From NCBI GenBank assembly GCA_051313645.2, contig JBNRSN020000007.1:100006001-100070000 (forward strand): a DNA stretch of 64,000 bases. Reading direction: 5' to 3'. This DNA comes from Centroscyllium fabricii. Lineage: Eukaryota. The position numbers were made by a program, and so were the translations under genes. Positions 5,792-39,301 of the stretch are shown here, one piece after another; position 1 is the stretch's first letter; every line of letters begins with the position of its first letter. The notes beneath the pieces were generated by a model. The model ran no database searches, was not told where the DNA came from, and worked only from the letters and a program-made list of their open reading frames with translations.

Positions 5792-5956
5792 TTACAACTT
5801 TTGATCCTCTTCCTCTTTTGTGAAAGCAAGATTATCATAGTTATGTGTGGTCTGTGGCTGCCGAAGTGTGCTAACTTCTGAATGATCCTGGTTGAATCCA
5901 CCATTAGTATGGCCCTTTAGATGTTTCTTCTGCACTTCTTCAAACAACTTCAAGAC
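5792..5956 (-). CDS. Host gene exon 9 (last coding): VLKLFEEVQKKHLKGHTNGGF...NYDNLAFTKEEEDQKL*
   Basis: AG acceptor (gactgaag|GTC), phase 0 matching exon 8, 165 nt ending in TAA. Confidence 0.75.
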   Translation of the reverse strand, partial: VLKLFEEVQKKHLKGHTNGGFNQDHSEVSTLRQPQTTHNYDNLAFTKEEEDQKL

Positions 5957-8593: not shown

Positions 8594-8683
8594 CTTATCA
8601 CCAAGTTTGGCATAGACTTGATTGTGGTGAGTGGTGTCTGCTTCTCCTGTTGGGTTTGCTGATGTCACTGCTATAGGCCCCAC
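8594..8683 (-). CDS. Host gene exon 7 (YrdC domain): VGPIAVTSANPTGEADTTHHNQVYAKLGDK
   Basis: cag|GTG...AAG|gtagtg, 90 nt, phase 0-0; YrdC TSAN-x-(S/T)G motif. Confidence 0.92.
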
Positions 8684-16994: not shown

Positions 16995-17107
16995 CTGGTC
17001 AATGAGATGTGTAGTAACAGCGCAGTCTGGAATCCTAATGGCAATGCTCTGAGGAGTTCCAATGTATTTATCTGCATGTTTCAGTCCGAATAAGTTCAAC
17101 CATTCCC
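16995..17107 (-). CDS. Host gene exon 6 (YrdC domain): (G)EWLNLFGLKHADKYIGTPQSIAIRIPDCAVTTHLIDQ
   Basis: aag|GG...CAG|gtgaga, 113 nt, phase 1-0; SIAIRIPD matches the YrdC (T/S)(V/I)(A/G)(I/V)R(V/I)P motif. Confidence 0.92.
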
Positions 17108-17418: not shown

Positions 17419-20400
17419 TGATGCGCTATCAATAACTCCAAAAGACTAGAAGTTATACAAGTAACAAATAGGCTTTTATTCACTAAAGAATGAGAGCATG
17501 CCTCTGCTGATCAACTGGTCCAGGACTGAAGGGGGGTTGGGAAACAGTCACCTTTATACCTGGGTCTGAGGGAGGAGCCACAGGCGGAGTCAGCAGGGGC
17601 ATCAGGTACATCAGGTAAGAGTGAACAATAATACAATAACAGTGGTTTACCACATTCACCCCTTGTTTAAAAATGAGTCCGGCGGGGTGAAGTGGGTTAA
17701 CATTTGTTATAAATTAAGTCTTTCGGGGGGTCTGGTCCGCCGCTGCGACCGTCGTAGTACTGGTTGCGGTTCCGATGTTGAATCCTGGGTGGTCTGGAGC
17801 ACCGGTGTGTTGTCCTCAGCTGTGTCGAGTTGGCGGGTGCTTAGCGACGGATCCTGGGGCCTTGGCGTGCCATCTACAGGGACTCGAAGAACATGCCTTG
17901 ACACTGGTGCATCGAGGGTAGCGGTGGGGGGTAATGGTGAGGGGTGGTGGGTGACGGTGGTCTCAGGGTCTCCTGAGGGTGCTAGATCTCTGATGGAGAC
18001 CGTGTCCTCCTGCCCATCAGGGTACGCAACATAGGCGTATTGGGGGTTGGCATGGAGGAGGTGGACCCTTTCAACCAGGGGATCCGACTTATGGCTCCTC
18101 ACGTGCTTCCGGAGCAGGACAGGCCCTGGGGACGTCAGCCACGTTGGTAGCGAGGTCCCGGAGGTGGACCTCCTAGGAAAAATAAACATTTTTTCGTGAG
18201 GAGTAGCGTTGGTGGCAGTACAGAGTAGGGGTCTGATTGAGTGGAGTGCATCAGGGAGGACATCTGGCCAGCGGGAGACTGGAAGGCCTCTAGACTTCAG
18301 GGCTAGAGGCCTTCCAGACTGTTGCGTTCTCCCTCTCTACCTGTCTGGTCCCCCGGGGGTTGTAGCTGGTAGTCCTGCTCGTGGCGACTCCTCTTGCGAG
18401 CAGGTACTGGCGCAGCTCGTCACTCATAAATGAGGAACCCCGGTCGCTATGGATATAGCTGGGGAACCCGAACAGGGCGAAGAGATTGTGCAGACACTTG
18501 ATGACCGTGGCAGAGGTCATGCCCGGGCAGGGGATGGCAAAAGGGAAACGTGAGTACTCATCAATGATATTGAGGAAGTACATGTTGCGGTCAGAGGAGG
18601 GGCCCTTTAAAGTTGACGCTGAGGCGCTTGAAAGGGCGGGTGACCTTTATCAGGTGTGCTCTGTCTGGCCTATGGAAGTGCACTCGGCACAGACTTGGCA
18701 GTTCCTGGTCATGGTCCTGACCTCCTCGATGGAGTAAGGTAGGTTGCGGGCCTTGACGAAGTGGAAGAACCTGGTGACCCCCGGGTGGCAGAGGTCATTA
18801 TGGAGGGTCTGCAGTGGACCCACCTGTGCGCTGGCACATGTCCCGCGGGATTGGGCATCTGGGGGCTCATTGAGCTTCCCGGGCCGGTACAAGATATCAT
18901 AATTGTAGGTGGAGAGTTCGATTCTCCACCTCAATATCTTGTCATTTTTGATTTTGCCCTGCTGCTTGTTATTAAACATAAGAGCAACTGAGCGTTGGTC
19001 AGTAAGCAGGGTAAATCGTTTACCGGCCAGGTAATGCCTCCAGTGCCGCACGACTTCCACAATGGCCTGGGCCTCCTTTTTGACAGAGGAGTGTCGAATT
19101 TCGGGGCCCTGGAGGGTACGTGAGAAGAAGGCCACGGGTCTGCCCGCTTGGTTAAGGGTAGCGGCCAGGGCAAAGTCGGACACATCGCTCTCCACCTGGA
19201 ACAGGGTGGATTCATCCACAGCGTGCATTGCGGCCTTCGCAATGTCCTCCTTAATACTGCTGAAGGCTAGGCGGGCTTCTGCCGTCAGGGGAAAAGAGGT
19301 GGATTTGATGAGTGGACGGGCTTTGTCCGCATAATTGGGGACCCACTGGGCGTAATACGAAAAGAAGCCCAGGCATCTCTTCAGGGCCTTGAGGCAGTGG
19401 GGGAGGGGAAGTTCCAGGAGGGGGTGCATGCGGTCGGGGTCGGGACCGATGACCCTGTTCTCCACAACACAGCCAAGGATGGCGAGGCGGGTTGTGCGAA
19501 ATATACATTTCTCCTTGTTGTAGGTCAGGTTCAGGCATTGGGCGGTGCGGAGAAATTTCTGGAGGTTAGCGTCGTGGTCCTGCTGGTCATGGCCACAGAT
19601 GGTGACATTATCCAGGTATGGGAATGTGGCCTGCAGCCCGTTCTGGTCAACCATTCAGTCCATCTCCCGTTGGAAGACTGAGACCCCATTGGTGACGCCG
19701 AAGGGAACCCTAAGGAAGTGGTAGAGGCGACCATCCACCTCAAAGGCAGTGTACTGGCGGTCCTCCGGGCGGATAGGGAGTTGGTGGTATGCTGACTTGA
19801 GGTCGATGGTGGAAAATACCCGGTACTGTGCAATCTGATTTACCATGTCAGATACGCGGGGAAGTGGGTATGCGTCCAGCTGCGTGTACCTGTTGATGGT
19901 CTGGCTATAGTCAATGACCATGCGGTGCTTCTCACTGGTCTTGACGACCACCACTTGGGCTCTCCAGGGTCTGGTGCTAGCCTCGATGATCCCCTCCTTC
20001 AGGAGCCGTTGCACCTCTGATTTGATAAACAGTCTGTCCCCAGTACTCTATCGCCTACTCTTGGTGGCGACGGGCCTACAGCCTGTGGTAAGGTTAGCAA
20101 ACAGCGGGGGAGGGGTGACGTTAAGAGTCGAGAGGCTGCAGATGTTGTGCGGTGGGCGATTTAAAGGCTGCTGGCTGTAGGCAGCGAGAGGGGGGATGGT
20201 GCGCGGTGGGCGATTTAAAAACTGCTGGCTGCGGACAGTGAGAGGGGGAAGGGGCCCATCGTATGCCATAGTGACACTCTTAAGGTGACATTTGAAATCT
20301 AGCCCTAGTAGCACGGCAGCGCAGAGCTGTGGTAGGATGAGGAGCTTGAAATCCTTGTACTCCGTGCCCCTCACAGTCAGGGTCAATACGCAGTAGCCGC

Positions 20401-22110
20401 CGACGTCCGCTGTATGGGACTTGGAGGCCAGAGAAATCTTTTGGCTTGCTGGCATTACTGGGAGTATGTAGCGCCGCACCGTGTCAGGGTGGACAAAGCT
20501 CTCCGTGCTCCCGCAGTCAAACAGGCATTTCGAATCGCGGCCGTTTACCTTAATGTTCATCATAGATCTGGCGAGTTGTGGAGGCCTGGATTGATCCAGG
20601 ATGATGGAGGCCAGTGTTGGGTTCGGTGGGTCGCTGTCGTACTCGGTTGAGGCGGTGGGGCAGTCGGGGGCCTGGTCCCAAGATGGCGACCCACGTGGCT
20701 CACATGCGGCTGGTGGCGTCCAAGGTGCTTGGCCTGGCCGCAGAAGTAGCACTTCGGGCCTGTAGTTGAGTCGCTGGTGGGTCGCAGGCCTCTGGACATC
20801 GCGGCTGTAGTCAGGTCGCTGGTGAGTCGATGCGTGGCGCAGGCTTGCGGCCCTCCCGAGTCCCACGATGGCAGCACCCGTGACATCCACGATGCGGCCG
20901 CGTGGTCAGGGGAGTAGGCGTCAATGTTTCGGTGGGCCACATCCAGCGAGTCAGCGAGGATCACAGCCTTCTGCAGATCGAGCCCGCTCTGTTCCAACAG
21001 TCTCTACCGGGTATAGCTGGACCTGATGCCGGTGACATAGGCGTCCCAGATTAAGTCCTCCGTGTTTTCTGTGGCCGTCACCGATTTGCACTGGCAGGCC
21101 CGACCGAGGACTCTCAGTGCCCATAGATATTCATCGCCCGATTCCCCGGGTCGCTGCTTGCGGGTAGCCAAGAGGTGTCTGGCGTAGACCTCATTGACCA
21201 TTTTAGTGTATTGGCTTTTCAAGAGTCTGATCGCGTCCATATAGGATTTAGCGTCTCTGATCATCGAATACACTTGGCTCACCCGTGAGTTGAGTACAAG
21301 CAGCTTGTCGGCATCATAGATTACATAGAAGATAGGAGCAGGAGTAGGCCATTCGGCCCTTCGAGCCTGCTCCGCCATTCAATGAGATCATGGCTGATCA
21401 TCCAAACCCAGCACCCTGTCCCTGCCTTCCCCCCATATCCCTATCGAGCCTGCACCGACACATATCCCACCCTATCCCCGTAACCCCACATATTCAATCC
21501 CCCTAACACTAAGGGTCAATTTATCATGGCCAATCAATCTTACCCGCACATCTTTGGACTGTGGGAGGAAACCGGAGCACCCGGAGGAAACCCACGCAGA
21601 CACGGGGAGAATGTGCAAACTCCACACAGATAGTACCCGAGGCCGGATTTGAACCCAGGTCTCCAGTGCTGTGAGACAGCAGTGCTAACCACTGTGCCAC
21701 CGTGCATCGGACTTGACTGTAGCGGTGGAGGCCTGCAGGAATGCTTTGAAGCAGCTCAGCCAGTGCTCGAAGTTGTTGGGAGGCATCCGCTCATTGGGGA
21801 TCCAGTTCTAGCCGTTCAGGCTTCAATATTTGCTCCATTGTAAAACAAATTAGTGAATAAAATTGATGCGCTATCAATAACTCCAAAAGACTAGAAGTTA
21901 TACAAGTAACAAATAGGCTTTTATTCACTAAAGAATGAGAGCATGCCTCTGCTGATTGACTGGTCCAGGACTGAAGGGGGGTTAGGAAACAGTCACCTTT
22001 ATACTGGGTCTGAGGGAGGAGCCACAGGCGGAGTCAGCAGGGGCATGTCCAGCTAGGTTACATACATCAGGTAAGAGTGAACTATAACACAATAACAGTG
22101 GTTTACCACA
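17419..22110 (-). mobile_element. Degenerate full-length Gypsy LTR retrotransposon (element B, related to A)
   Basis: LTRs 17419-17654 and 21864-22110 (diverged, with indels), TSD CCCAT, PPT; gag-pol broken into ORFs 21004-21378, 20048-20997, 19655-20014, 18650-19654, 18290-18583, 17707-18189. Confidence 0.95.
21316..21703 (-). mobile_element. HE1-like V-SINE inserted in the gag of element B
   Basis: tRNA head (TGGCACAGTGG, GGTTCAAATCC), V-core GTGGAGTTTGCACATTCTCCCCGTG, CR1-type tail; flanked by GCATC. Confidence 0.9.
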
Positions 22111-22207
22111 CCCATCTGCCATTTGAACTGGAAAATTACACTTGACACAGTCGATGAGGGTAAAAAATCAGGATGGGGGAATATGGAAAGTAGCAAAGGG
22201 GTCTTAC

Positions 22208-22356
22208 CTCTGGGGATGACAAGACTGATAGACGAAGGCCAAACTGTCTGCATGAAGTCCCAGAGTAGAGGGTTCAACAGATGTTTTGCTGGTTCTAGTT
22301 GTGCTAAGTTGGAGATCCATAGAGACATTGGCCTCTCTTTGGCTTGTTTCTTTGTG
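22208..22356 (-). CDS. Host gene exon 5 (YrdC domain): (N)TKKQAKERPMSLWISNLAQLEPAKHLLNPLLWDFMQTVWPSSISLVIPR
   Basis: cag|C...AGAG|gtaag, 149 nt, phase 2-1; WPSSISLV aligns to YrdC WPGPLTLV. Confidence 0.92.
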
Positions 22357-23347: not shown

Positions 23348-23447
23348 TTGTAAGCCTTTTCCACAGCATCAGGACGATTGCAGGCTGCCACCAACACATA
23401 CACAGTGTCTGTTGGAATACCACATGCACCTCCATTTTTCATAATCT
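23348..23447 (-). CDS. Host gene exon 4 (YrdC start): (E)IMKNGGACGIPTDTVYVLVAACNRPDAVEKAY
   Basis: cag|AG...AA|gtagga, 100 nt, phase 1-2; PTDTVY is the YrdC/Sua5 PT(D/E)TVY signature. Confidence 0.93.
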
Positions 23448-25937: not shown

Positions 25938-27620
25938 CTGCAATTTTTCTGACTGATGTGGCTTTTCTTGAAGGCAAATGAGGGCACATAGCGCTGCCCT
26001 GCCCAAACCCACACAGGTTCGCCCAGGCATGTCCCATGGGCAACTGGGGGCTCTCAAAGCTCTGGTTAAAGAGGGAGGCCAAAAAGCAGTAAAAACTAAC
26101 CAAACCAAAAATGATGGTGACCCCAATATCATATCCGAAAGGATTTGAATTTATGGCATCCAATAGAAAGCTGATCAGGATCAACTGAAAGCTGAGAGAG
26201 AAGGCAAACCACACTATGTTAAGAAAGATAGTCCCGATCACCACAAAGCAATTAAAAAGCAGGAAGCAAATAATCCCGACAGCAATACCAAACCCCCTAG
26301 TGGAACCATAGAGCCCACCGTATCTGGTCAAACCCCAGATTATCCATATTAGACCATATAGAATGAAAGCACAACTTTCCAAGGTTTTACCCCGAGAAAA
26401 CGAGATTGAACCACACAGAATCTGCAGGACTCCCCCAGGAATGACGATCCAGGGCAGGACCACAGTGGCTAAAGGAGCAGAAGCATTGACGGATACAGTG
26501 ATGGCAAAGGCAGCCACAACGTTACAGGCATGAGCGAGAATCTCAGCGTCTGAATATCTGGAGTAGCCCAAATAAGGGCTGTGGGTGTCTTTGCCTGACT
26601 TCAGAGTTAATATATTCATTCTAATGAGTAAACCCTTTACGCTCCCTTGTCCAGTGGGAATAGTGAAGGACCCAAAACTATTGAAAAGGGAAATTAAAGT
26701 TAAGCAAGCAGATGCCACAAATATGGCCACACTGACACCTTGTGCACCACCATGAAAAAATCCAGTGGGGTGAGCTGCCACTGCTATACAGTAGGAAACA
26801 AAAAAAAGCAAATAAGCTCCATCAACAAGGCTTTTACTAGTCATAAACAGAGCCAGAATGAAAAAAAGGACAGCAAGGACAATAGGGACTGGAACTGGAA
26901 AGAAGGGTTGGTTGTCTTGCCAGAGCTTGTAAAGAAAAGCATAGCCCTCTGCAAATTTTAATATAGAGGTAAAACCAAAGAATGTAGCAGTCAGGCTGTC
27001 AATGGCTCTATAAGACAAAACACAAACACCAATTTGATAGACAGCTGCTGTCCACAGCCAGGGGACCTGGCCAACAAACAGACTGGAAGTTACACCTAAA
27101 ACCTGGCATCCTAACACACTGGCAGATAGCATGTTTGTAATGTACCCCAGAGCCACTGTGTCATTTGTGAAGAGGTTCTGGGGCTCAGATTTCAGATGGG
27201 AATTATTCTTGGACAAATCAGTCCCTGGGAGAATGAGTTTTCCTTTACTTAAGGAGGCAGAAACACGGCCCAACCCAAAGTAAAGCCCTATAAAGGAAAC
27301 AATCAAATAATTTGAAGCTACTGCAGAATGACCAAAAGATTGATCATATAATGCGGCAATTTCATGGGCGGTAGCAAGAGAGATAGCAAAAGCAATCATA
27401 GCCAGAATCACTTCCTTTTGGATTAACCCCACCACCCCGATGATGAAGAGCCCCAAGACGAAAGCTGAGTAACCAGGGACCAGTGCATTCCTGATCCCAT
27501 CATCTTGAACTATCTTCTCCCCGATCAAGATATGGATAAGGCCGGATCCACACCAGAGAGCTGACACGGTCAGGCACAGGTTCACAAATAACATAGCATG
27601 ACTTGAAGACTTTCTTACAC
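25938..27620 (-). CDS. Host gene exon 3: large multi-pass membrane region of SatP/YaaH (GPR1/FUN34)-like repeats
   Basis: 1683-nt open exon, cag|GT...GCAG|gtaag, phase 1-1; many hydrophobic helices; GGVLQILCGSISFSRGKTLESCAFILYGLIW and FYCFLASLFNQSFESPQLPMG resemble SatP segments. Confidence 0.93.
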
Positions 27621-27970
27621 CTGCAGAAAAACCAACCAGAAAAAAATCAATAGTAAAGGAGTCTGCATAGGCTTCATACCCATACATATACACACACATT
27701 GAGTTACATTGAATGTATAGCACACAAAGAGGTCATTCACCCCAACAAGTCTATGCTGGCGTTTATGCTCCACACAAGCCTCCTCCCACCCTTCTTCATC
27801 TAACCCTATCAGCTTCTATTCCTTTCTCCCTCATGTGCTTTTATAGCTTCCCCTAAAATGCATCTATGCTGCTGGCCTCATCTACTCCTTGTGGTAGAGC
27901 GTTCCACATTCTTACCACTCTTTGGGTGAAGAGGTTTCTCCTGAATTCCCTATTGGATTTATTAGTCATG

Positions 27971-28671
27971 ATGTGGAGGTGCCGGTGTTGGACTGGGGTG
28001 GACAATTGCAAGAAGTCACACAACACCAGGTTATAGTCCAACAGTTTTATTTTAAATCACAAGCTTTCGGAGCTTCTGCCCCTTCGTCAGGTGAAAGAGA
28101 AGCTGACTTAAAGAACGCACATATGGGAGGACGAGAGAAATCTGATCTCCCACATCTCACCTTAGCAGAGATAGACAGAGCACAGAAAGGCGTATTAACA
28201 TATTTTAACACATCAGTCTGAGATCAATGAGGCACAGTCACAAGGGGTCAAATGCTGCAAAACACACAGAATGATTTAAAAAAAAAGGAATTTCCTTACA
28301 AGACAAAGATGTCTCTCGTCTGGATGACTCTACGTCAGGCAGGGTCACATGTAGCGTGACATGAAGCCAATATCTTGTCTTGTAAGGAAATTCCTTTTTT
28401 TTTATCATTCTGTGTGTTTTGCAGCATTTGACCCCTTGTGACTGTGCCTCATTGATCTCAGACTGATGTGTTAAAATATGTTAATACGCCTTTGTGTGCT
28501 CTGTCTATCTCTGCTAAGGTGAGATGTGGGAGATCAGATTTCTCTCTTCCTCCCATATGTGCGTTCTTTAAGTCAGCTTCTCTTTCACCTGATGAAGGGG
28601 CAGAAGCTCCGAAAGCTTGTGATTTAAAGTAAAACTGTTGGACTATAACCTGGTGTTGTGTGACTTCTTGC
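27971..28671. mobile_element. Penelope-like inverted (hairpin) insertion within a minus-strand CR1 fragment
   Basis: About 300-bp inverted arms with a short spacer; hammerhead core in each arm; ATTTATTAGT duplicated on both flanks. Confidence 0.8.
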
Positions 28672-28780
28672 ATTTATTAGTGACTATCTTATATTTATGA
28701 CCTTTAGCTTTGGATTCCCCCACAAGTGGAAACATTTTCTCTACGTCTACCCTATCAAACTCTTTCATTATCTTAAAACT

Positions 28781-31700
28781 TTATAAAGTTTAGAAGGTCT
28801 TAATTTTTTTTGTGGTTATAGTTTCTAGTGCTAGTAACCAAGTAGATCATTTAATTGGTGGTATTGATTTGATTTAACTTAAATAAAACAGTAAGTCATG
28901 GCAGGAGAGCTCCGTCCCGTGGTATGCTTGTCCTGCGCTATGTGGGAAATCAGGGACACTTCCTGTGTCCCTGATGACCATGTGTGCAGGAAGTGTATCC
29001 AGCTGCAGCTACTGACAGACCGCATTGCGGCACTGGAGCTGCGAATGGATACATTCTGGAGGATTCGTGATTCTGAGGGCGTTGTGGAAAGCACGTTTAA
29101 TGAGTTGGTCACACTGCAGGTAAACGCTGCACAGGCAGGGGGAGAATGGGTGACCACCAGGCAGAGTAGAAGGTGCAGGCAGGTAGTGCAGGGGTCCCCT
29201 GTGACCATCATCCTCACAAACAGATACAGCGCTTTGGATATTGGTGAAGGAGATGGCTTATCAGAGGAAGGCAGCAGCAGCCAACTTTCTGGCAAAGGAC
29301 GGGAAGAAAAGGAGTGGGCGAGCTATAGTGATAGGGGATTCTATTGTAAGGGCAATAGACAGGTGTTTCTGCGGCTGCAAACGAGACTGCAGGATGGTGT
29401 GTTGCCTCCCTGGTGCAAGGGTCAAGGATGTCTCAGAGCGGCTGCAGAACATTTTGGAAGGAGAGGGTGAACAGCCAGTTGCCATGGTGTAACAACGATA
29501 TTGGTAAAAAATGGGATGAGGTCCTAAAAGTTGAATATGGGGATTTAGGAGGTAAATTAAAAAATAGGACCTCAAAGGTAGTAATCTTAGGATTGCTACC
29601 AGTGCCACGTGCTAGTCAGAGTAGAAATAGAAGGATATTTCAGATGAATACATGGCTAGAGGAATGGTGCAAGGGGGAGGGATTCAAATTCTTGGGACAT
29701 TGGAACCGGTTCTGGGGGAGGTGGGACTAGTTCAAACTGGATGATCTGCACCTGGGCAGGGCCAGGACCGATGTCCAAGGGGGAGTGTTTGCTAGTGCTC
29801 TGGGGGAAGGTTCAAACTAAAATGGCAGGGGGTTAGGTACCTGAGCAGGAAGACAGAGGAAAGGGAAACAAGGATAAAATCAAAAGACAGGAAGGAGAAA
29901 AACAAAAGTGGCAGTCAGAGAAATCAAGGGTTTAAATCAAACATGGCCACTGTAAATGATAATTCTAAAAGGTCTAAGAGCATTACAAAAACAAACCTGA
30001 AGGCTTTGTGTCTTAATGCGAGGAACATTTGTAATAAGGTGGATGACTTAGCCGTGCAAATAGAGGTAAACAAATATGATATGATTGGGATTACGGAAAC
30101 ATGGCTCCAGGATGACCAAGGCTGGGAACTCAACATCCAGGGGTATTCAATATTCAGCAAAGATAGGCAAAAAGGAAAAGGTGGTGGGTAGTATTGCTGG
30201 TTAAAGAGGGGATTAACACAATTGTAAGGAAGGATATTAGCACTGAGGATGTGGAATCTGTATGGGTAGAACTAAGAAATACTAAGGGGCAGAAAATGTT
30301 AGTGGGAGTGGTATATAGACCTCCAAACAGTAATATGGAGGTTGGGGATGGCATTAAAAGGGAAATTAGAGACGTGTGCAATAAGGGCACAACAGTTATC
30401 ATGGGTGACTTTAATCTACATATAGATTGGGCTAACCAAATTAGTAACAATACTGTGGAGGAGGAATTCATAGAGTGTATATGGGATGGTTTCCTGGACC
30501 AATATGTCGAGGAACCAACTAGAGATCAGGCCATCTTGGACCGGGTATTATGTAATGAGAAAGGATTATTTAGCAATCTTGTTGTGCAAGGCCCCTTGGG
30601 TCTGAGCGATCATAATATGATAGCATTCTTCATTAAGATGGAGAGTGAACTAGTTGACTCAGAGACTAGGGTCCTGAATTTAAATAAAGGAAACTATGAT
30701 GGTATGAGGCACGAGTTGGGTAGGATTGATTGGGGAATGTCATTCAAAGGGTTGACAGTGGATAGGCAATGGCAAACATTCAACGATCGCATGGATGAAC
30801 AACAGAAGTTGTTCATCCCAGTTTGGCATAAAAATAAAACAAAAAAGGTGACTCAACCGTGGCCAACAAGGGAAATTAGGGATAGCATGAGATCCAAGGA
30901 GAGGGCATATAAATTGGCCAGAAAAAGCAGTAAACCTGAGGATTGGGAGCAGTTTAGGATTCAACAAAGGAAGACAAAGGGATTAATTAAGAGGGGGAAA
31001 ATAGATTATGAGAGTAGGCTTGCAGGAAACATAAAAACTGACTGTAAAAGCTTCTATAGGCATGTGAAGAGAAAAAGATTGGTGAAGTCAAACGTAGGTC
31101 CTTTGTAGTCAGAATCAGGGGAATTTATAATGGAGAACAAAGAAATGGAAGACCAATTAAATACATACTTTGGTTCTGTCTTCATAAAGGAGGACACATA
31201 TATCCTCCCAGAGTTGTCGGGGAACACAGGGTCTAATGAAAGGGAGGAACGGAAAGAAATCAGTATTTGTAGGGAAATGGTGTTAGGGAAATTGATGGGA
31301 TTGAAGGCTGATAAATTCCCAGGGCCTGATAATCTTCATCCTAGGGTACTTAAGGAAGTGGCCCTAGAAATAGTAGATGTATTGCTGGTCATCTTCCAAA
31401 ATTCGATAGACTCTGGAACAGTACCCATGGATTGAAGGGTAGCTAATGTTACCCCACTATTCAAAAAAGGTGGTCGAGAGAAAACGGGGCATTACAGGCC
31501 GGTAAGCCTGACATCGGTAGTGGGGAAAATGCTAGAGTTCATTATAAAAGATGTAATAGCAGAGCACTTGGATTTACAAAGGGTAAATTGTGCTGGTCTA
31601 ATCTACTGGAATTTTTTGAGGATGTAACTGGTAAAATAAATAAGGGAGAACCAGTGGATGTAGTGTATTTGGACTTTCTAAAGGCGTTCGATAAGGTCAC

Positions 31701-32828
31701 GCAGAAGAGATTAGTGTGTAAAGTTAAGGCACATGGGATTGGGGACAAGGTACTGACTTGGATAGAGAACTGGTTAGCAGACAGAAAGCAAAGAGTTGGA
31801 ATAAACGGGTCTTTTTCCGAGTGGCAGGCAGTGACTAGTGGGGTAGCGCAAGGATTGGTCCTTGGATCCCAACTATTCACAATATATATTAATGATCTAG
31901 ACGTGGGAACTAGATGTAATATCTCCAAGTTTACAGATGACACAAAGCTGGGTGGGTGTGTGTGCTGTGAGGAGGATGCTGAGAAACTCCAGTATAATTT
32001 GGACAGGTTGGGTGATTGGACAGAAGCATGGCAGATGCAATACAATGTGGATAAATGCGAGGTTATCCACTTTGGTGTCAAAAACAGGAAGGCAGATTAT
32101 TATCTGAATGGCAATAGATTGGGAGAAGGGGCAGTGCAAGGTCGCTGAAGGTAATCATGCAGGTGCAGCAGGTGGTTAAGAAGGCAAATGGTATGTTGGC
32201 CTTCGTAGCGAGAGGGTTTGAGTACAGGAACAAGGATGTCTTGCCACAGTTGTACAGGGCCTTGGTGAGACCACATCTTGAGTACTGTGTGCAGTTTTGG
32301 TCGCCTTATCTGACGAAGGATGTTCTTGCCATGGAGGGAGTGCAGCGAAGATTCACCAGACTGATACCTGGGATGGCAGGAATGATGTATGAGGCGAGAT
32401 TGGGTCGATTGGGCTTATACTCGCTGGAGTTTAGAACAATGAGAGGGGATCTCATTGAAACCTATAAAATTCTGAAAGGACTGGACAGACTAGATGCAGG
32501 AAGGATGTTCCTGATGGTCGGACAGTCCAGAACCATGGGTCACAGTCTAAGGATAAGGGGAAATCCATTTAGGACAGAGACGAGGAGGAATTTCTTCACC
32601 CAGAGAGTGGTGAACCTGTGGAATTCTCTACCACAGAAGACCGTAGAGGCCAATTCATTAAATATACTCAAGAAGGAGTTAGATATATTTCTTAAGGCCA
32701 TAGGGATCAAGGGATATGGAGAGAAGGCAGGAACAGGGTACTGAATTTGGATGATCAGCCATGATCTCACAGAATGGTGGAGCAGGCTCGAGGGGCCAAA
32801 TGGCCTACTCCTGCTCCTATCTTCTATG
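28781..32828 (+). mobile_element. Near full-length degenerate CR1 LINE
   Basis: ORF1 from 28898 (CxxC finger, SGNH esterase GDSIVR); ORF2 with APE endonuclease (ITETW, MGDFN, SDHN) and RT, broken by stops and frameshifts; 3' tail. Confidence 0.95.
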
Positions 32829-33085
32829 ATGTGGAGGTCCCGGTGTTGGACTGGGGTGGACAATTGTAAGAAGTCACACAACACCAGGTTATAGTCCAAC
32901 AGTTTTATTTGAAATCACAAGCTTTCGGAGCGCTGCTCCTTCGTCAGGTGAAGTGAAGAGATGCATATATATTCTGTGCCTATGTGTATCTCTCCACTTC
33001 ACCTGACGAAGGAGCAGCGCTCCGAAAGCTTGTGATTTCAAATAAAACTGTTGGACTATAACCTGGTGTTGTGTGACTTCTTACA
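32829..33085. mobile_element. Penelope-like hairpin insertion at the CR1 3' tail
   Basis: Same terminal sequence as 27971; near-perfect inverted arms. Confidence 0.8.
33000..33034 (+). ncRNA. Minimal type I hammerhead ribozyme motif (Penelope-associated)
   Basis: CAC-CTGACGA-A-GGAGC-AGC-GCTCC-GAAA-GCTT-GTG: core boxes, stem II, stem I CAC/GTG, palindromic AAGCTT. Confidence 0.65.
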
Positions 33086-33099
33086 TCTATGTTTCTAAA

Positions 33100-33790
33100 A
33101 GACCTCTATCAGGTTACTCCTCTTTTCTGGAGAAAAGAGCCCCAGCCTTTTCAGCTTTTACTGATAAGTATATCCTCTCCACTCTGGTATCATCCTTGTG
33201 AATCTTTTTTGCAGCTTCTCCAATGTCTCTATATTCTTTTAATAATATGGAGGCCAGAACTGAGCACACTATTCCAAGTGTGGTCTAACCAAATTTCGAA
33301 GCAAGTTTAACATAACTTTTTTGTTTTTCAGTTCTAGCCCTCCAGAAATGAACCCCAGTGCGTGGCTTGCTGTTTTTGTGGCCTTATTAACCTGTGTCAC
33401 CACTTTTAGTGATTTATGTAACTGATCCCTTTTCTTCTCTACCACATTCAGGCTCTTATTATCCTAGCAGTACGTGGCCTTCTTATTCTTCCTACCAAAA
33501 TGCACCACCTCACACTTGCCTATATTGAAATGAGTTTGCCAATTACATGTTCATCTGGAAGCTTATTAATGTCTTCCTGTTGCATTCTTCCTTTGTGTTA
33601 ATTATACCTCACAATTTCGTGTCAACCGCAAATTTTGATATTGTACTTCCAATTACCGAGTCCAAATCATTAATGTAAATTGTGAACAATTGTGGTCCCA
33701 TCAATGATCCCTGTGGAACACCACTTCCCACCTATGTTAGTCTGTGTAGTTATCCTTAACCCCTACTCTCTTTTCTAATTTGTAGCCAGC
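33100..33790 (-). mobile_element. Old CR1 RT fragment
   Basis: Reverse strand gives FAVDTK and degenerate RPHLE..QFWPP motifs; boundaries approximate. Confidence 0.7.
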
Positions 33791-33857
33791 GCGCACACAA
33801 ACACGGACATATGTCTTTAATGGGCCCACATTCCACTTTATCACTCGGGTTCTTAAT

Positions 33858-35353
33858 GGTGCAGAAATTCGGGTCCCAACGCCCGAGTACGCGCTGGGTG
33901 CTCACGCATAGGCACATCTAAAGTGCCGGTTTCGTGCATGCACAGTGCATGCGCGCGAAACCGGCAGTTGCGATCCCCTGACATAAGGGTTCAGAGGTCG
34001 GAACGCGTGCGCGGGAGCGGCAGCGCGTGCGCAATGCACTTCCGATTTCTTTATAAGATTCTGTGTCCGGGTAAGTATGAAAAAGTTACGGCTGATATTT
34101 TAATATCCAAAGACAGGTTTTAACAAGGTAAGTGGTGAATTAATTCAAATTAAAAAAAAAATTCCACAGGTTTATTATTTTTAAATACTTTAAAGAAAGG
34201 TAAGTTTATTTTTAGCCCCATCAGAAAAAATTATTCATTTTTTCAAAAATTTAAATTATTGGCCCAGAAATTCGGGGCCCAACGTGTGGGCCCATCGGAA
34301 TTGCCGGTTTCCGGCATGCACCACGCATGCGCGCGAAACTGGCAATTCCAATCCAGGGACAGAAGGGGTCAGATGTCTGAGCGCGTTTGTGTGTGCGCCA
34401 GGGGGTGCGCAATGCACTTCCGATTTTTTCACGGGTTTGTATCAGGGTAAGTATTTGAAAAATTTATGGTTAAAATTTTCAAGCACAAAGAGTGGATTTC
34501 ATCAGGTAATTCTTTATTTTATTCAATTTAAACATTTTTTTCCACAGGTTTTTCATTTTTCAATAATTTAAAGAAAGGTAAGTTGTTTTTAGACCCGTTA
34601 AATACTTTATTTATTTTTTTCAAAATTTTTATTTTTTGTTTAAAATAGCTAATTTATGTGATTGATAGTAATTAAAAAAAATGTGATTTAAAAAAAAAAA
34701 TATTTTAAGATTTAGTGTGGTTTTGGGGCTGCAGTAATTCATAAGTTTGACAGGTCTTCCTGTCAAACTCATGAATGGAGCATTCTTTGGCTCCCCGCAG
34801 ACCACGTGATCCCATGCGGAGCCTCGCACTAACTCCGACGTTCAGAGGCACCAGCGCGGCGCGCCGGCCTCTCAGCAGGGCTTAGGATCGGGATTACAAG
34901 CGGGTGGAATCGGAAACGGCAGGCGCGCTCCGTAAGTGTGGGTTGGAGGCTTGCACTCGTGGGAAGCCTCCAACCTGAATTTTTGGGCCATTGTTTAAAA
35001 TAGTTATTTAATGTAATTGATAGTTATTTTTTAAAAAAGTGATGTTTTTTAAAATTTATTTGAAGATTTAGTGATGATTTGGGGTTGTAGTTTTCATACT
35101 TTTGACAGGTCCTGCTGTCAAACTTATGAATGGAGCATTTTGTGCTCCGATTGGCTCTCTATGGCCCACGTGATCCCACGCGATCCATCACACTAACTGC
35201 GCCGCTGGGATACGTGAACACAGCGCGCCGGCATTTGGAGGAGGCCCCGCATCGGAATTCCACGCGGGCCCACAGCTCAACGACCGGCGCGCTAGGTAAG
35301 TGCAGGTTGGAGGCTTATACACACGGGAAGCCTCCAACCCGAATTTATGGGCC
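33858..35353. mobile_element. Harbinger-type MITE (outer copy)
   Basis: Termini GGTGCAGAAATTCGG...CCGAATTTATGGGCC, TSD AAT. Confidence 0.75.
34261..34989. mobile_element. Harbinger-type MITE of the same family nested in the outer copy
   Basis: Termini GGCCCAGAAATTC...GAATTTTTGGGCC, TSD ATT; internal sequence parallels the outer copy. Confidence 0.8.
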
Positions 35354-35938
35354 AATATATTTATAAAACCTTATACTGTTAGCTTTCATATCCTTTGCAA
35401 GTTTTTTTTTCGTATTCCCTTTTTCTTTATTTCTTTGCATCTCTTTGTTGCTTTTTATAGTTCTCCCAGTCTGAAAGATTTGAACTTTTTCTTGATTTTG
35501 TGCAAGCCTTTTCTTTGAGTTTGGTGCTGTCTGTTACCTCATTTGTTGACCATAGTTGCTCAACAACAGGAGTAGAGTGGTTGCCTTTTAGGGGTACACA
35601 CTGCTTTTGTATTGTACCAAATACTTCATTTCATTTCTTATCCCTTCGAAGTTTGCCTTACTTAAACTTAAAATCTTAGTTTGTGACTCCCATTTCTGCC
35701 TTTCAAATTCAATATCAAATTTAATCATATTCTGGTCACTATTTGCAAGATGTTTCATTACTGTCAGATTGTTAACTAATTCTGGTTCATTACTCATCAC
35801 TAAATCTGGTATTATCCTTTCTTATCTTCCTCCATTGTGTGCATGAGATCCTTTGCCGTTTGTTGCTGTCTTTGTCTATCCACTGTTTAGCATTTTATTC
35901 CATTTAGGATTAGTTTCCCCAACACTTGTACACATACA

Positions 35939-36620
35939 CGCTCACTCTCACACTCTCACTCGCTCACTCTCACCCGCTCACTCTCACCCGCTCACTCTCA
36001 CCCGCTCACTCTCACCCGCTCACTCTCACCCGCTCACTCTCACCCGCTCACTCTCACCCGCTCACTCTCACCCGCTCACTCTCACCCGCTCACTCTCACC
36101 CGCTCACTCTCACCCGCTCACTCTCACCCGCTCACTCTCACCCGCTCACTCTCACCCGCTCACTCTCACCCGCTCACTCTCACCCGCTCACTCTCACCCG
36201 CTCACTCTCACCCGCTCACTCTCACGCGCTCACTCTCACGCGCTCACTCTCACGCGCTCACTCTCACGCGCTCACTCTCACGCGCTCACTCTCACGCGCT
36301 CACTCTCACGCGCTCACTCTCACGCGCTCACTCTCACGCGCTCACTCTCACGCGCTCACTCTCACGCGCTCACTCTCACGCACTCACTCTCACGCACACA
36401 CACACACACTCACTCATACACTCACTCATACACTCACTCATACACTCACACTCTCACTTGCTCACTTACACTCACACACTCACATACTCACTCACATACT
36501 CACTCACATACTCACTCACATACTCACTCACATACTCACTCACATACTCACTCACATACTCACTCACATACTCACTCACATACTCACTCACATACTCACT
36601 CACACCCACCACACACACTC
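35939..36620. repeat. Minisatellite of 14-bp and 12-bp units
   Basis: (CTCACTCTCACCCG)n, then (CTCACTCTCACGCG)n, then (CTCACTCACATA)n. Confidence 0.95.
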
Positions 36621-37134
36621 TACACTGAATAGACCAAATAGCTTATAACCATATAAAACAAACTTCATTTACCATTTAAAATTACAACCAAAAATAACTT
36701 TAAAAAAATACAGGATTGACTTATTGGAAATTAATATTAAGAGCAAACCAGTCAACCAGTCAATAAGATACTTTCTATGCTAAAGCAGCCTAAATACAAA
36801 TTTGCAGTTAGAGGTGGGGAAGAGCGGAGATTGTTAAATGAACAGGTCTGAGACTTCACTGTACATGAAAACAACCTGGCTTTTAGCCGTAACCATTTTA
36901 CAATCAGGGCGATAGATCCATTTTAGTATTTTTAATTTCATGTCAGCGGGTTAATGTCTGAAAAATGAATCTTGCCAGCACAATGTTAACAATGGATGTT
37001 CAGGCAGCTCAGTGGCAAAATCAGGGGATTTTTTTAAAACAAAAAAATCTATCCCCTCCCCCCCTTTACCATTATTTGTGATGATTGAGACCCTGGTGCA
37101 CTGAAGACACAATTACAGCTGTTTAGAAAGATAG

Positions 37135-37410
37135 ACTTGCATCTATATAGCGTCTTTAACAACCTCAGGGCGTCCCAAACAATTAAGTACTTTTTGAAAT
37201 GTAGTTACTGTTGTAATGTAGGAAATGCGGCAGCCAATTTGTGCATGGCAAGCTCCCACAAACAGCAATATGATAATGACCAGATAATCTGTTTTAGCAG
37301 TGATGGTTGAAGAATAAATGTTGGCCAGGACACCGGGGATAACCTCTCTGCTCTCCTTCAAAATAGTGCCATGAGAAGGCAGACGAGGCCTCGGTTTAAC
37401 GTCTCATCCT
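37135..37410 (-). mobile_element. DeuSINE (SacSINE1-like) fragment
   Basis: Reverse complement of the family at 62440-62830 (GATGAGACGTTAAACCGAGG...TATATAGATGCAAG). Confidence 0.75.
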
Positions 37411-37586
37411 AGAATGTATTTTGAAATGATGTAAATTAAATGGCTTAAGAGGTGCCATGCATGCCCAGTGTCCATCTACCTTCAACAATACTAGAAAACA
37501 GTGAGTTTTCAGGACTATCACCCTGCTCCTGGCTTGTACAAATCCCCATTTGAATTGTAAACTCATGTAGATAAATCTTAAAGTAT

Positions 37587-38058
37587 CATAGAGTCATACA
37601 GCACAGAAAGAGGCCCTTCGGCCCATCATGTCCGCACCAGCCATCAAGCCCAGTCTATTCTAATCCTATTTTCCAGCACTTGGTCCGTAGCCTTGTATGC
37701 TATGGCATTTCAAGTGCTCATCTAAATGCTTATTGAATGTTGTGAGGGTTCCTGCCTCTACCACCCTTTCAGGCAGTGAGTTCCAGATTCCAACCACCCT
37801 CTGGGTGAAAAAGTTCTTCCTCAAATCCCCTCTAAACCTCCTGCCCCATACCTTGAAACTGTGCCCCCTGGTTATTGACCCCTCTACTAAGGGGAAAAGT
37901 TCCTTTCTATCTACCCTATCTATGCCCCTCATAATTTTGTACATCTCAATCAGGTCCCCCCTCAGCCTTCTCTGCTCTAAGGAAAACAACCCCAGCCTGC
38001 CCAGTCTCTCTTCATAGCTGAAGCGCTCCAGCCCAGGTAACATCCTGGTGAATCTCAG
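37587..38058 (-). mobile_element. CR1 LINE 3' fragment
   Basis: ORF RFTRMLPGLERFSYEERL...[15 protein letters not shown]. Confidence 0.9.
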
Positions 38059-38576
38059 CTGTAGCCGCACCCTGATGGTTGAATTGGGAAGTGCATCACC
38101 TGATGTAATGAATCATACAGACCAGGAAGGCCACAGGTTCTACGTTAGCTGATCTTACCTGGGGTAGAAGTTGGAGCACGACAATTGAACTCCTGGGCTA
38201 GGGTGGAGGAAACAAGCATAGCTCCTGCTCAATGTTCAGTGACCGCTGCTTAAAAGTGGCATGTGTAGATTTTGGGTGAGAATATGGCTGTGATTCCTGC
38301 TTGGTTAAATAGTCTGTTTATGACTCGCACAAGAAGGCAAGGTAAAGGAGGGCTAGCACCATTGGAACTGCATCCCATCAGGGCTGGCCCTTTCGGAAGA
38401 AGAGGCGAGAACATGGGGGGGGGGGGGGGAATAGAAGATGCCTGGCGTGATTGCTCTTTCAGTGAAATTGTCCCAAAGAATATTATTGTGCCCCATACTC
38501 TGTTCAGGGAAGCGTTAGGACACTGGAGAATGCGCTAACTAGAAAACAGAGAGAAGTTACACTGCAATACAACATG

Positions 38577-38794
38577 ATGTGGAGGTGCCGGTGTTGGACT
38601 GGGGTGGACAAATGCAAGAAGTCACACAACACCAGGTATAGTCCAACAGTTTTATTTGAAATCACAAGCTTTCGGAGCTTTTGCCCCTTCGTCAGGTCTC
38701 TCTTTCACCTGACGAAGGGGCAGAAGCTCCAAAAGCTTGTGATTTAAAATAAAACTGTTGGACTATAACCTGGTGTTGTGTGACTTCTTGCATT
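38577..38794. mobile_element. Penelope-like hairpin insertion
   Basis: Inverted arms; 12-bp flanking duplication TGCAATACAACA. Confidence 0.8.
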
Positions 38795-38877
38795 TGCAAT
38801 ACAACAGACTGGGATGCCACTAACTATAACGAATCTCCTGCGATTTGTGTCAGTATTTGCAGCATACTGTTACTTAC

Positions 38878-38982
38878 CACTATAGCCGAGAAGAGCAGAC
38901 ACGATGAGCAGTAGAATCCCGAGAGCCGAGCTGGGGATCAGCTGAACGGTGCTGTAGTAATTCACAGCCAGCAACAGCGCAC
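38878..38982 (-). CDS. Host gene exon 2: (G)ALLLAVNYYSTVQLIPSSALGILLLIVSALLGYS
   Basis: tcag|GT...AGTG|gtaagt, 105 nt, phase 1-1, hydrophobic, in frame with exon 3. Confidence 0.85.
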
Positions 38983-39065
38983 CTGACACACACAAAGGAA
39001 ATAAACAAGGGAATTTTTAAGATGGCAAGACATTTGGAAGAAAATAATTTGATGAATTAACTGTA

Positions 39066-39187
39066 ATGTGGAGGTGCCGGTGTTGGACTGGGGTGGACAA
39101 ATGCAAAAAGTCACACAACACCAGGTTTATAGTCCAACGGTTTTATTTTAAATCACAAGCTTTCGGAGCGCTGCTCCTTCCTCAGGT
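39066..39187 (-). mobile_element. Penelope-like single terminal arm in intron 1
   Basis: Same sequence as the long arm of the other copies. Confidence 0.75.
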
Positions 39188-39234
39188 AACAAAGAGAAAT
39201 GAATTAACTGGAGCAATTTATTTTCAGCGCTTAC

Positions 39235-39301
39235 CTGCACAGGTGCTGAGAATCCCCATGGAATAGTACAGGGTCTCGGTGGTCCCGTGTTCTTGTGGCA
39301 T
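39235..39301 (-). CDS. Host gene exon 1 (coding part): MPQEHGTTETLYYSMGILSTCA
   Basis: GAGATGC start, GCAG|gtaagc donor, phase 1, TATA box about 160 nt upstream. Confidence 0.75.

What the first reader, a model, noticed from the sequence alone, without database searches (positions are those of the whole stretch)
25938..39301. Membrane region is an internal triplication, suggesting a concatenated half of the SatP hexamer
Seen: three ~200-aa units each end in a similar motif (GLYFGLGRVSASLSKGKLILPG; ACLTLISLFNSFGSFTIPTG; SFYCFLASLFNQSFESPQLPMG). Units 2 and 3 share a Q-x8-R-x-(D/K)-(S/T)-L motif (YQIGVCVLSYRAIDSLTATFF; LQILCGSISFSRGKTLESCAF). The family NPAPLGL motif is degenerate (DTVALG, DAEILA). 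Known: SatP assembles as a homohexamer with one pore per subunit. Inference: a dimer of this protein could rebuild a pseudo-hexamer of three non-equivalent pores carrying two YrdC domains.
Basis: inference. Interest (0 to 1): 0.75.

Follow-up and report, generated by a model that had tools for sequence, protein, structure and literature searches.

The report
Triple-pore channel with crippled enzyme tail
This shark gene encodes three fused copies of a bacterial acetate-channel fold followed by a tRNA-enzyme-like domain, a design already published for non-mammalian vertebrates; its enzyme domain lacks an essential arginine that a linked sister gene keeps, so the two proteins likely work as a pair in an immune metabolic pathway.

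Summary
The triplication is real but already in print. The span covers exons 1-3 of a 9-exon, 864-aa shark orthologue of zebrafish si:ch211-153b23.4. An orthologue's model has 18 helices in three blocks of six. Units 1 and 3 match SatP structurally (Z 19.8, 20.9); unit 2 matches unit 3 by profile (97%). A YrdC domain follows, outside the given coordinates. Ghasemi et al. (bioRxiv 2025, iScience 2026) describe the triplication, the fusion and the two-protomer ring hypothesis. The ring itself remains untested.

Not found in print by my searches:
(1) This clade lacks the essential KxR arginine (0 of 108 vertebrate copies), whereas paralogue .3 keeps it.
(2) The paralogues share a contig in 24 of 26 species and split before molluscs and chordates diverged.
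(3) Pore residues differ per unit: the F17 position is polar in all six, and unit 1 lacks Q50 and Y72.
(4) In zebrafish, .4 co-varies with irg1l (r=0.90); .3, like IRG1L, survives in monotremes.

Best reading: likely half of a six-unit small-anion channel with a non-catalytic YrdC domain, possibly paired with .3 in the IRG1L/itaconate immune gene cluster.

The parts
39235..39301 (-). Exon 1 (ATG; aa 1-22; start of SatP-fold unit 1)
   Evidence: tblastn of shark orthologues; GT donor, open spliced frame
38878..38982 (-). Exon 2 (aa 23-57; rest of helix 1 and helix 2 of unit 1)
   Evidence: 90% identity to P0002; AG/GT ends
25938..27620 (-). Exon 3, 1,683 nt (aa 58-618): rest of unit 1, units 2 and 3, linker to YrdC
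   Evidence: joined to exon 4 in contigs of 3 of 4 runs from related organisms
27223..27620 (-). Unit 1, helices 3-6 (unit 1 = aa ~9-190): SatP fold; no NPAPLGL-like motif, no Q50 or Y72 equivalent; W76 equivalent W80 kept
   Evidence: VIA Z 19.8 to 5ys3 for the orthologue's unit 1; residue census
26650..27168 (-). Unit 2 (aa ~209-381): F17 position N220 (121 of 121), Q253 kept, Y72 position T275, W76 position K279
   Evidence: HHalign 97.2% to unit 3; register; census
26032..26559 (-). Unit 3 (aa ~412-587), the most SatP-like: Q457, Y479, W483 kept; F17 position N424; E57 position S464
   Evidence: VIA Z 20.9; phmmer to 5zug E 0.0018; PF01184 15.9 bits, under cut-off 25
23348..23447 (-). Exon 4: start of the YrdC/TsaC-like domain (PTDTVY motif)
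   Evidence: both junctions seen in contigs
22208..22356 (-). Exon 5: K654-x-Q656 (22352-22344) in place of the KxR motif; R660 at the N62 position
16995..17107 (-). Exon 6: YrdC domain, R726 (threonine-binding R121 equivalent)
8594..8683 (-). Exon 7: T746-S747-x-N749 (SxN motif intact) and a family-specific D-x-T-H-H loop
8370..8492 (-). Exon 8: end of the YrdC domain (S785, R802)
5792..5956 (-). Exon 9: C-terminal helix, low-confidence tail, stop codon TAA

Best explanation
The gene encodes three fused SatP-fold membrane units and a YrdC domain that lacks the essential KxR arginine; it likely forms half of a two-chain, six-unit channel for small carboxylate-type anions, probably with its linked paralogue .3 as the other half, in an infection-induced pathway around the itaconate enzyme IRG1L. 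Shown: gene structure, triplication, fold, fusion, residue changes, linkage to .3 and co-expression in zebrafish. Inferred: (1) two chains close a ring like the SatP hexamer (about 0.7). (2) Units 2 and 3 conduct and unit 1 is mainly structural; a polar residue at the F17 constriction and the missing E57 suggest a substrate other than acetate, such as a dicarboxylate or a product of the cluster (about 0.5). (3) The YrdC domain does not make TC-AMP for tRNA but still binds a ligand and regulates or scaffolds (about 0.6). (4) The partner is .3, which supplies the catalytically intact YrdC domain (about 0.4, against about 0.3 for a homodimer).
For: Fold and repeat. SatP is a hexamer (read). KxR census: among 120 vertebrate .4 proteins, 108 gave a motif match and none has R (99 KxQ, 7 KxH, 2 KxK); 12 gave no match, mostly membrane-only fragments. 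Mollusc .4: 3 KxL, 1 KxQ. Paralogue .3: 119 of 120 KxR by regex (1 no match), plus 62 of 62 further (42 by regex, 20 read by eye). E. coli R52A is non-functional in vivo (PMC2685093). A frog .4-derived protein keeps the membrane part but has lost all YrdC motifs (P0130). The YrdC tree gives .4 (100/99) and .3 (97/98) as separate clades, each with molluscs and vertebrates; amphioxus has both. Same longest-contig length in 24 of 26 species listed for both genes (counted by eye), with consecutive locus tags in Channa striata and Coilia grayii. Pfam PF01184 recognises unit 3 in .4 and unit 1 in .3; these would be neighbours in a mixed ring. Over 18 exposures (55 rows of Table 2 of PMC8877790).4 correlates best with irg1l (r 0.90), then .5 (0.87), 207n23.2 (0.86) and .3 (0.79); median -0.01. 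irg1l.4 and .5 are listed together in two further studies; irg1l.3 and .5 are hubs of one module. A YrdC-domain gene is syntenic with IRG1L and paleo-IRG1; IRG1L is kept in platypus and lost in therians. .3 is present in platypus and echidna.
Against: No transport, enzyme or binding data exist for any member in the papers I read. The .4 YrdC domain is the best-conserved part of the protein (83% mean pairwise identity vs 62-74% for the units). It keeps SxN, T138 and four of five threonine-binding residues, and has an arginine at the N62 position that might replace the lost one, so it may be an enzyme of altered specificity. .3 is not in this 64-kb window, and sharing a chromosome-scale contig is weak linkage. 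No monotreme or typical frog .4 appeared among the best 120 hits, while both groups have well-conserved .3, and .3 has several copies in some teleosts; this fits poorly with a strict 1:1 pair. The co-expression table holds preselected genes, and sult5a1 and 207n23.2 track irg1l as closely, so it may be a general stress module. That the 'YrdC' gene beside IRG1L is this family is my inference; I could not see the figure. Protist-type homologues have the same layout with KxR intact, so the fusion is not confined to animals and does not depend on IRG1L. The L131 position could not be mapped.
Confidence: 0.45

Rival explanations
1. Homodimer: two copies of this protein close the six-unit ring and carry two identical YrdC domains.3 forms its own separate ring.
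For: Three units are half of six, and the linkers of 21 and 34 aa allow side-by-side packing. pTM 0.72 for the whole chain suggests the units pack on each other. .3 persists in groups where a conserved .4 was not seen, so .3 at least may work alone. Proposed in Ghasemi et al..
Against: A homodimer would carry two YrdC domains that both lack the essential arginine. It does not explain why the two paralogues stay linked and co-expressed.
Confidence: 0.3
2. Channel-enzyme for tRNA modification: the pores deliver bicarbonate or another substrate to an active TC-AMP synthase.
For: Fold match to TsaC2/Sua5 (Z 14.8); PF01300 112 bits; SxN, T138 and the T/R/S/R threonine-site residues are kept; database names say 'threonylcarbamoyl-AMP synthase'. 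A related idea is raised in Ghasemi et al..
Against: KxR arginine absent throughout the clade, the change that separates inactive YciO from YrdC. Stress- and infection-linked expression and absence from therians do not fit an essential housekeeping step; animals have a separate canonical YRDC (established knowledge; search listing).
Confidence: 0.1
3. Not a conducting channel: the SatP-fold units are a membrane anchor or sensor and the protein signals or scaffolds through its YrdC domain.
For: NPAPLGL is degenerate, E57 is absent from all six units of the pair, unit 1 lacks Q50 and Y72, and unit 2 has K at the W76 position. E57A abolishes acetate transport in CkSatP (read).
Against: Pore-facing positions are near-invariant in units 2 and 3 (N220 121 of 121, Q253 120 of 121, Y479 120 of 121, W483 121 of 121) and in all units of .3, which suggests a maintained substrate path.
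Confidence: 0.15

Closest known systems
Vertebrate Ato (AceTr)-Sua5/YciO/YrdC fusion family (Ghasemi et al., bioRxiv 10.1101/2025.05.26.656167; iScience 2026, PMC13316224)
   Same: About 900 aa, three tandem six-helix Gpr1/Fun34/YaaH domains, C-terminal YrdC, two vertebrate clades, dimer-to-six-domain-ring hypothesis. This gene is a member, in the si:ch211-153b23.4 clade.
   Different: The sections and supplement text I read do not examine catalytic or pore residues, linkage of the two clades, a mixed dimer or expression. They state absence from mammals and possible transfer to protostomes, whereas .3 is in monotremes and mollusc sequences form sister groups in both clades. Protist-type homologues were outside their fungal and metazoan search.
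SatP / AceTr family (PF01184; E. coli 5ZUG, C. koseri 5YS3/5YS8)
   Same: Six-helix fold per unit (Z about 20); C-terminal N-x-F...LP-x-G motif; Q50, Y72 and W76 kept in unit 3.
   Different: Three fused, 10-20% identical units; NPAPLGL degenerate; F17 position polar; E57 absent; fused cytoplasmic domain.
TsaC/YrdC/Sua5 threonylcarbamoyl-AMP synthases (PF01300) and the inactive paralogue YciO
   Same: Fold (Z 14-15), PTDTVY, SxN, TsaC-type T138, four of five threonine-binding residues.
   Different: KxQ instead of KxR (YciO lacks both K and R); no SUA5 domain; membrane-fused; forms, with its eukaryotic relatives, a clade apart from the sampled single-domain TsaC-like and Sua5 proteins (100/100).
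UreI urea channel (3UX4)
   Same: Second structural hit for unit 1 (Z 15.5); also a six-helix hexameric channel fold (hexamer recalled).
   Different: Lower score than SatP, 7% identity, no sequence or Pfam support.

Membership tests
Vertebrate Ato-Sua5 fusion family (Ghasemi et al.) | [quoted passage not shown] | tested here: met
   18 helices 6+6+6; units 1 and 3 by structure; unit 2 by profile
Vertebrate Ato-Sua5 fusion family (Ghasemi et al.) | C-terminal Sua5/YciO/YrdC domain in the same chain | tested here: met
   Nine GT-AG exons give one 864-aa frame; exon 3-4 and 4-5 joints in contigs of 3 of 4 runs
Vertebrate Ato-Sua5 fusion family (Ghasemi et al.) | About 900 aa, non-mammalian vertebrate, one of two clades | tested here: met
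   864 aa, 86-90% identical to named shark proteins.4 clade in the tree
AceTr/SatP (PF01184) | Six-helix SatP fold | tested here: met
   Z 20.9 rmsd 2.4 172 aligned; Z 19.8 rmsd 3.0 184 aligned
AceTr/SatP (PF01184) | Pfam gathering score | tested here: not met
   Unit 3: 15.9 bits vs cut-off 25; units 1 (partial) and 2: no hit. Orthologue P0052 (26.8) and paralogue P0416 (28.4) pass
AceTr/SatP (PF01184) | NPAPLGL signature | tested here: not met
   DTVALG, DAEILA, unrecognisable in unit 1
AceTr/SatP (PF01184) | FLY constriction (F17, Y72, L131) | tested here: not met
   F17 position T20/N220/N424; Y72 kept only in unit 3; L131 not mappable. The F17 position rests on the G+4 spacing read from the Ato1 F98A primer
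AceTr/SatP (PF01184) | Q50, E57, W76 substrate residues | tested here: not met
   Q in units 2 and 3 only (74 of 121 in unit 3); E57 in none; W in units 1 and 3, K in unit 2
AceTr/SatP (PF01184) | Six-unit ring | not testable with these tools
   Two full membrane regions exceed the 1000-residue limit; no coordinates are returned to measure inter-unit angles
AceTr/SatP (PF01184) | Carboxylate transport | not testable with these tools
   Needs a transport assay
TsaC/YrdC/Sua5 TC-AMP synthase | YrdC fold and PF01300 | tested here: met
   Z 14.8 to 9dsq; 112 bits for P0005
TsaC/YrdC/Sua5 TC-AMP synthase | KxR of the KxR/SxN tetrad | tested here: not met
   K654-K655-Q656; 0 of 108 matched vertebrate .4 proteins have R
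TsaC/YrdC/Sua5 TC-AMP synthase | SxN of the tetrad and TsaC signature T138 | tested here: met
   T746, S747, N749; S and N in 110 of 110 non-gap rows
TsaC/YrdC/Sua5 TC-AMP synthase | Threonine site (T35, H67, R121, S181, R195 of P. abyssi Sua5) | tested here: inconclusive
   Four of five kept; H67 position is W665, but single-domain TsaC-like rows also lack this His
TsaC/YrdC/Sua5 TC-AMP synthase | TC-AMP synthesis / tsaC complementation | not testable with these tools
   Needs an assay

The most novel reading that the evidence does not exclude
si:ch211-153b23.4 and .3 are the two halves of a heterodimeric channel-enzyme: six different SatP-type pores above one active and one pseudo-YrdC domain. 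They belong to an ancient animal immune biosynthetic gene cluster (IRG1L decarboxylase, glutamine amidotransferase, 2OG-Fe(II) oxygenase, VOC protein) that makes and exports an itaconate-related or carbamoylated defence metabolite. The cluster is kept from oysters to platypus and lost as a unit in marsupials and placentals.
Probability: 0.22. Interest if true: 0.85.

Novelty: already known. Interest (0 to 1): 0.42.

Why it matters
As stated, the finding rediscovers a family and a hypothesis published in 2025-2026. The additions matter more. Databases label hundreds of these proteins 'threonylcarbamoyl-AMP synthase', which the .4 clade probably is not. The link to IRG1L gives an orphan membrane protein a testable context. 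If the novel reading holds, it would be a rare operon-like metabolic cluster in animals, with its own exporter, and an immune pathway that most vertebrates have and therian mammals lost.

Tried and rejected
- Single-sequence and shallow-profile repeat tests gave nothing: BLASTP self-comparison; vertebrate-only HHalign, where one reversed control scored higher than the real pairs. Pfam on the exon 3 ORF: 0 families.
- Complex prediction: shark .4 residues 8-590 with shark .3 residues 244-645 scored 0.01 twice against a mark of 0.34; verdict 'no answer'; alignments were not used. It says nothing either way. The homodimer was not run (one job; 1,164 residues).
- Foldseek on the full model ranked YrdC structures first and SatP at E about 0.1. 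Full-length searches report only unit 3.
- No RNA holder was listed as on record; the laid runs are guessed RNA from related organisms, and one of the four showed no joint.
- Bacterial origin of the fusion: 80 genome loci matched only in or next to the YrdC region, and unit profiles found SatP-like sequence in 3 of 160 loci, all from the metagenome set. The profiles' sensitivity for bacterial SatP was not calibrated.
- The ~550-aa 'YrdC-free' hits end where exon 3 ends, and one clusters with a full-length chiton protein; rejected as a separate form.
- phmmer of a scallop .3 unit 1 against PDB: no hit.
- ESM Atlas gave PF01184 clusters at 0.89-0.90, a lead only.
- No whole genome was held, so neighbours of the gene could not be read.
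- Earlier findings of this scan: none.
- Literature searches for a heterodimer, the KxR loss or an IRG1L link found no such claim. The library lacks most subscription journals; the figures of Ghasemi et al. and of the IRG1 preprint, and bioRxiv supplements, were not visible and may bear on this.
Full report
WHAT THE REGION IS. The window is vertebrate genomic DNA rich in LINE and LTR-retrotransposon debris; its closest named relatives are sharks. No whole genome was held. The finding's span, 25938-39301, covers exons 1-3 of a minus-strand gene. tblastn with shark orthologues located nine exons. With exact GT-AG ends (39301-39235, 38982-38878, 27620-25938, 23447-23348, 22356-22208, 17107-16995, 8683-8594, 8492-8370, 5956-5792 including the stop) they give one open frame of 864 aa, 86-90% identical to five named shark proteins, 69% to coelacanth and 62-63% to goose and Astyanax. 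It is the orthologue of zebrafish si:ch211-153b23.4 (389 hits, best 120 listed). Contigs from 3 of 4 laid runs (guessed RNA, related organisms, two studies) join 25938 to 23447 and 23348 to 22356 with GT..AG ends, so membrane and YrdC exons are spliced together in relatives.

THE OBSERVATION. All quoted peptides are present; the unit ends fall at aa 190, 381 and 587. The repeat cannot be seen in the single sequence or in vertebrate-only profiles. It appears once mollusc sequences and the paralogue are added: unit 2 vs 3 probability 97.2 (score 72; shuffles at most 17); unit 1 vs 2 or 3 only 2-4; unit 1 vs unit 1 of the paralogue 93.5; and that unit vs units 2 and 3, 96.5 and 97.7. AlphaFold2 on orthologue P0005 gave 18 long helices in three blocks of six, then an alpha/beta domain (mean pLDDT 75, pTM 0.72). 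Unit 3 matches SatP (Z 20.9, rmsd 2.4, 172 aligned) and the C-terminal domain matches TsaC2/Sua5 (Z 14.8). Unit 1 folded alone (pLDDT 84) has SatP as its top hit of 48,161 chains (Z 19.8, rmsd 3.0, 184 of 188, 10% identity), then UreI (15.5). Unit 2 rests on profile evidence only.

PRIOR ART. Ghasemi et al. report a vertebrate Ato family with three six-helix Gpr1/Fun34/YaaH domains and a C-terminal Sua5/YciO/YrdC domain, in two clades and absent from mammals. They hypothesise that two protomers form a six-domain ring like SatP (bioRxiv 10.1101/2025.05.26.656167: abstract, passages, sections 3.1 and 3.6; iScience PMC13316224: passages and supplement text search). The finding as given is therefore known, and the ring is a hypothesis there too. 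'Catalytic' occurs 0 times and 'dimer' once in the iScience text; 'heterodimer' and 'Sua5' occur 0 times in its supplement text; figures were not visible.

THE YrdC DOMAIN. TsaC/Sua5 need a KxR/SxN tetrad (PMC6004061 and PMC10321239, passages). E. coli K50A and R52A fail in vivo, and these residues separate YrdC from the non-complementing YciO (PMC2685093, passages). The window's protein has K654-K655-Q656, aligned to KER/KNR/KGR of solved Sua5 proteins. Of 120 vertebrate .4 proteins, 108 matched the motif: 99 KxQ, 7 KxH, 2 KxK, none KxR; 12 did not match. Mollusc .4 has KxL or KxQ. The second clade is si:ch211-153b23.3: 119 of 120 KxR, one unmatched, and 62 of 62 further sequences. Against a simply dead domain: it is the most conserved region of .4 (83% vs 62, 66 and 74% for units 1-3), keeps S747, N749, T746, T633, R726, S785 and R802, and has R660 at the N62 position. 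For dispensable catalysis: a frog .4 derivative keeps the membrane part and has lost every motif (P0130).

THE PORES. SatP positions (F17, Q50, E57, F64, Y72, W76; PMC8379382, passages) were mapped through a phmmer alignment to 5ZUG and unit-to-unit profiles, then counted in 121 .4 and 120 .3 rows. The F17 position is N in unit 2 (121 of 121), S or N in unit 3, N/D/N in the units of .3, and T in the window's unit 1 (mostly I in orthologues). E57 is absent everywhere. Unit 3 keeps Q (74 of 121; K in 40), Y479 and W483. Unit 2 keeps Q253 but has T and K at Y72 and W76. Unit 1 keeps only W80. L131 could not be placed. In yeast Ato1, F98A at the F17 position allows succinate uptake, and E57A abolishes acetate transport in CkSatP. 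Pfam recognises unit 3 in .4 and unit 1 in .3.

THE PARALOGUE AND THE CLUSTER. In a YrdC-domain tree of 51 rows (P0165 dropped, anchor not found).4 (100/99) and .3 (97/98) each contain molluscs as sister to, not nested in, vertebrates; amphioxus has both. This fits an early duplication and losses better than transfer from vertebrates; I ran no topology test. The two genes have the same longest-contig length in 24 of 26 species with values for both (counted by eye; exceptions Astyanax and Polypterus), with consecutive locus tags in Channa striata and Coilia grayii. .3 is not inside this window. In Table 2 of PMC8877790 (part 1 of the tables section read; 55 rows used, three rows with missing values dropped, part 2 not read).4 correlates with irg1l at r 0.90.5 0.87, 207n23.2 0.86.3 0.79 and sult5a1 0.78, median -0.01; the genes were preselected, so this may be a broad stress module. 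irg1l.4 and .5 are adjacent in a Shigella heat-map list (PMC6980646 and bioRxiv 10.1101/719781, passages) and among the top five induced genes after PFOS (PMC9228135, passages); irg1l.3 and .5 are hubs of one module (PMC11140123, passages). The IRG1 preprint (10.1101/2022.06.17.496652, passages and part 2 of Results) finds VOC, YrdC, 2Fe(II)-oxygenase and GAT genes syntenic with both paleo-IRG1 and IRG1L. It shows that zebrafish IRG1L makes itaconate, that sharks have only IRG1L, and that IRG1L is kept in platypus and lost in therians; its authors saw no obvious functional clustering. .3 is present in platypus and echidna and no therian appeared in the three lists of best 120. That their 'YrdC' is this family is inferred. 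Against an obligate pair: no monotreme or typical frog .4 in the best 120, and extra .3 copies in some teleosts.

WIDER RANGE. Unnamed 900-1,140-aa proteins, one with a marine-protist transcriptome source label, have SatP-like units (unit 1 matches .3 unit 1 at 99.4%; their third unit is unmatched), a KxR-intact YrdC domain and an extra C-terminal region. Prokaryotic hits cover only the YrdC region at 23-35% identity.

MECHANISM. Shown: architecture, fold, fusion, residue changes, linkage, co-expression. Inferred: a two-chain six-unit ring (0.7); conduction of a small carboxylate-type anion through units 2 and 3 (0.5); a ligand-binding, non-catalytic YrdC domain (0.6); .3 as partner (0.4) against a homodimer (0.3); a role beside IRG1L in innate-immune metabolism (0.6). 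Rivals are a homodimer, a tRNA-modifying channel-enzyme and a non-conducting scaffold.

VERDICT. Observation confirmed, interpretation partly supported, family and ring hypothesis already published: 'already known', interest 0.42. The unpublished leads (pseudo-active YrdC clade, mixed ring, IRG1L cluster) have a joint probability near 0.22 and would deserve about 0.85. My searches for such claims were (listings only, except the papers named above); the library lacks most subscription journals. The UreI hexamer and the separate canonical animal YRDC are recalled, not read.

Noticed in passing
window 9296-13330 (-), intron 6: Uninterrupted 1,344-aa gag-pol ORF (protease, RT, RNase H, integrase) of a Ty3/Gypsy-type LTR retrotransposon, with matching 29-bp tandem arrays at 9094-9157 and 13526-13589; a near-identical partial copy lies at 46443-48179.
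   Followed up: partly
window 14236-15798 (-), intron 6: 520-aa ORF with no Pfam hit and a Cys-rich C-terminal end; probably transposon-derived.
   Followed up: partly
window about 17500-22130, intron 5: Degraded Gypsy-type element in pieces between two similar terminal repeats.
   Followed up: no
window about 28900-32800 (+), intron 2: Near full-length, interrupted LINE (endonuclease and RT pieces), CR1-like by recall.
   Followed up: no
window 48984-50318 (+) and 50613-51947 (-): Identical 444-aa integrase ORFs in inverted orientation: an inverted duplication or an assembly artefact.
   Followed up: no
window 55566-58532 and 35951-36393: 38-bp satellite (78 copies) and a 14-bp array (32 copies, 99% matches).
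   Followed up: no
P0130 (Pyxicephalus), P0138 (Pseudophryne), P0171, P0188: Strongly diverged .4-like proteins (33-35% identity); in P0130, P0171 and P0188 the YrdC motifs are fully eroded, while frog .3 is well conserved.
   Followed up: partly
P0156, P0157, P0158, P0160, P0279, P0283: Unnamed protist-type homologues with SatP-like units, KxR-intact YrdC and an extra ~200-aa C-terminal region without a Pfam hit; they extend the family beyond animals.
   Followed up: partly
P0440, P0481: Platypus and echidna carry the .3 paralogue, which narrows the published 'absent from mammals' to therians.
   Followed up: partly
window exon 3 end (25938) and P0155, P0167, P0175, P0178: Unnamed ~550-aa fragments, one clustering with a chiton protein, stop at the same point as exon 3, suggesting an intron position shared between molluscs and sharks.
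   Followed up: no
P0162, P0176 (Physella acuta): Short stand-alone YrdC proteins nested in the .3 clade, one with KxR and one with eroded neighbours.
   Followed up: no
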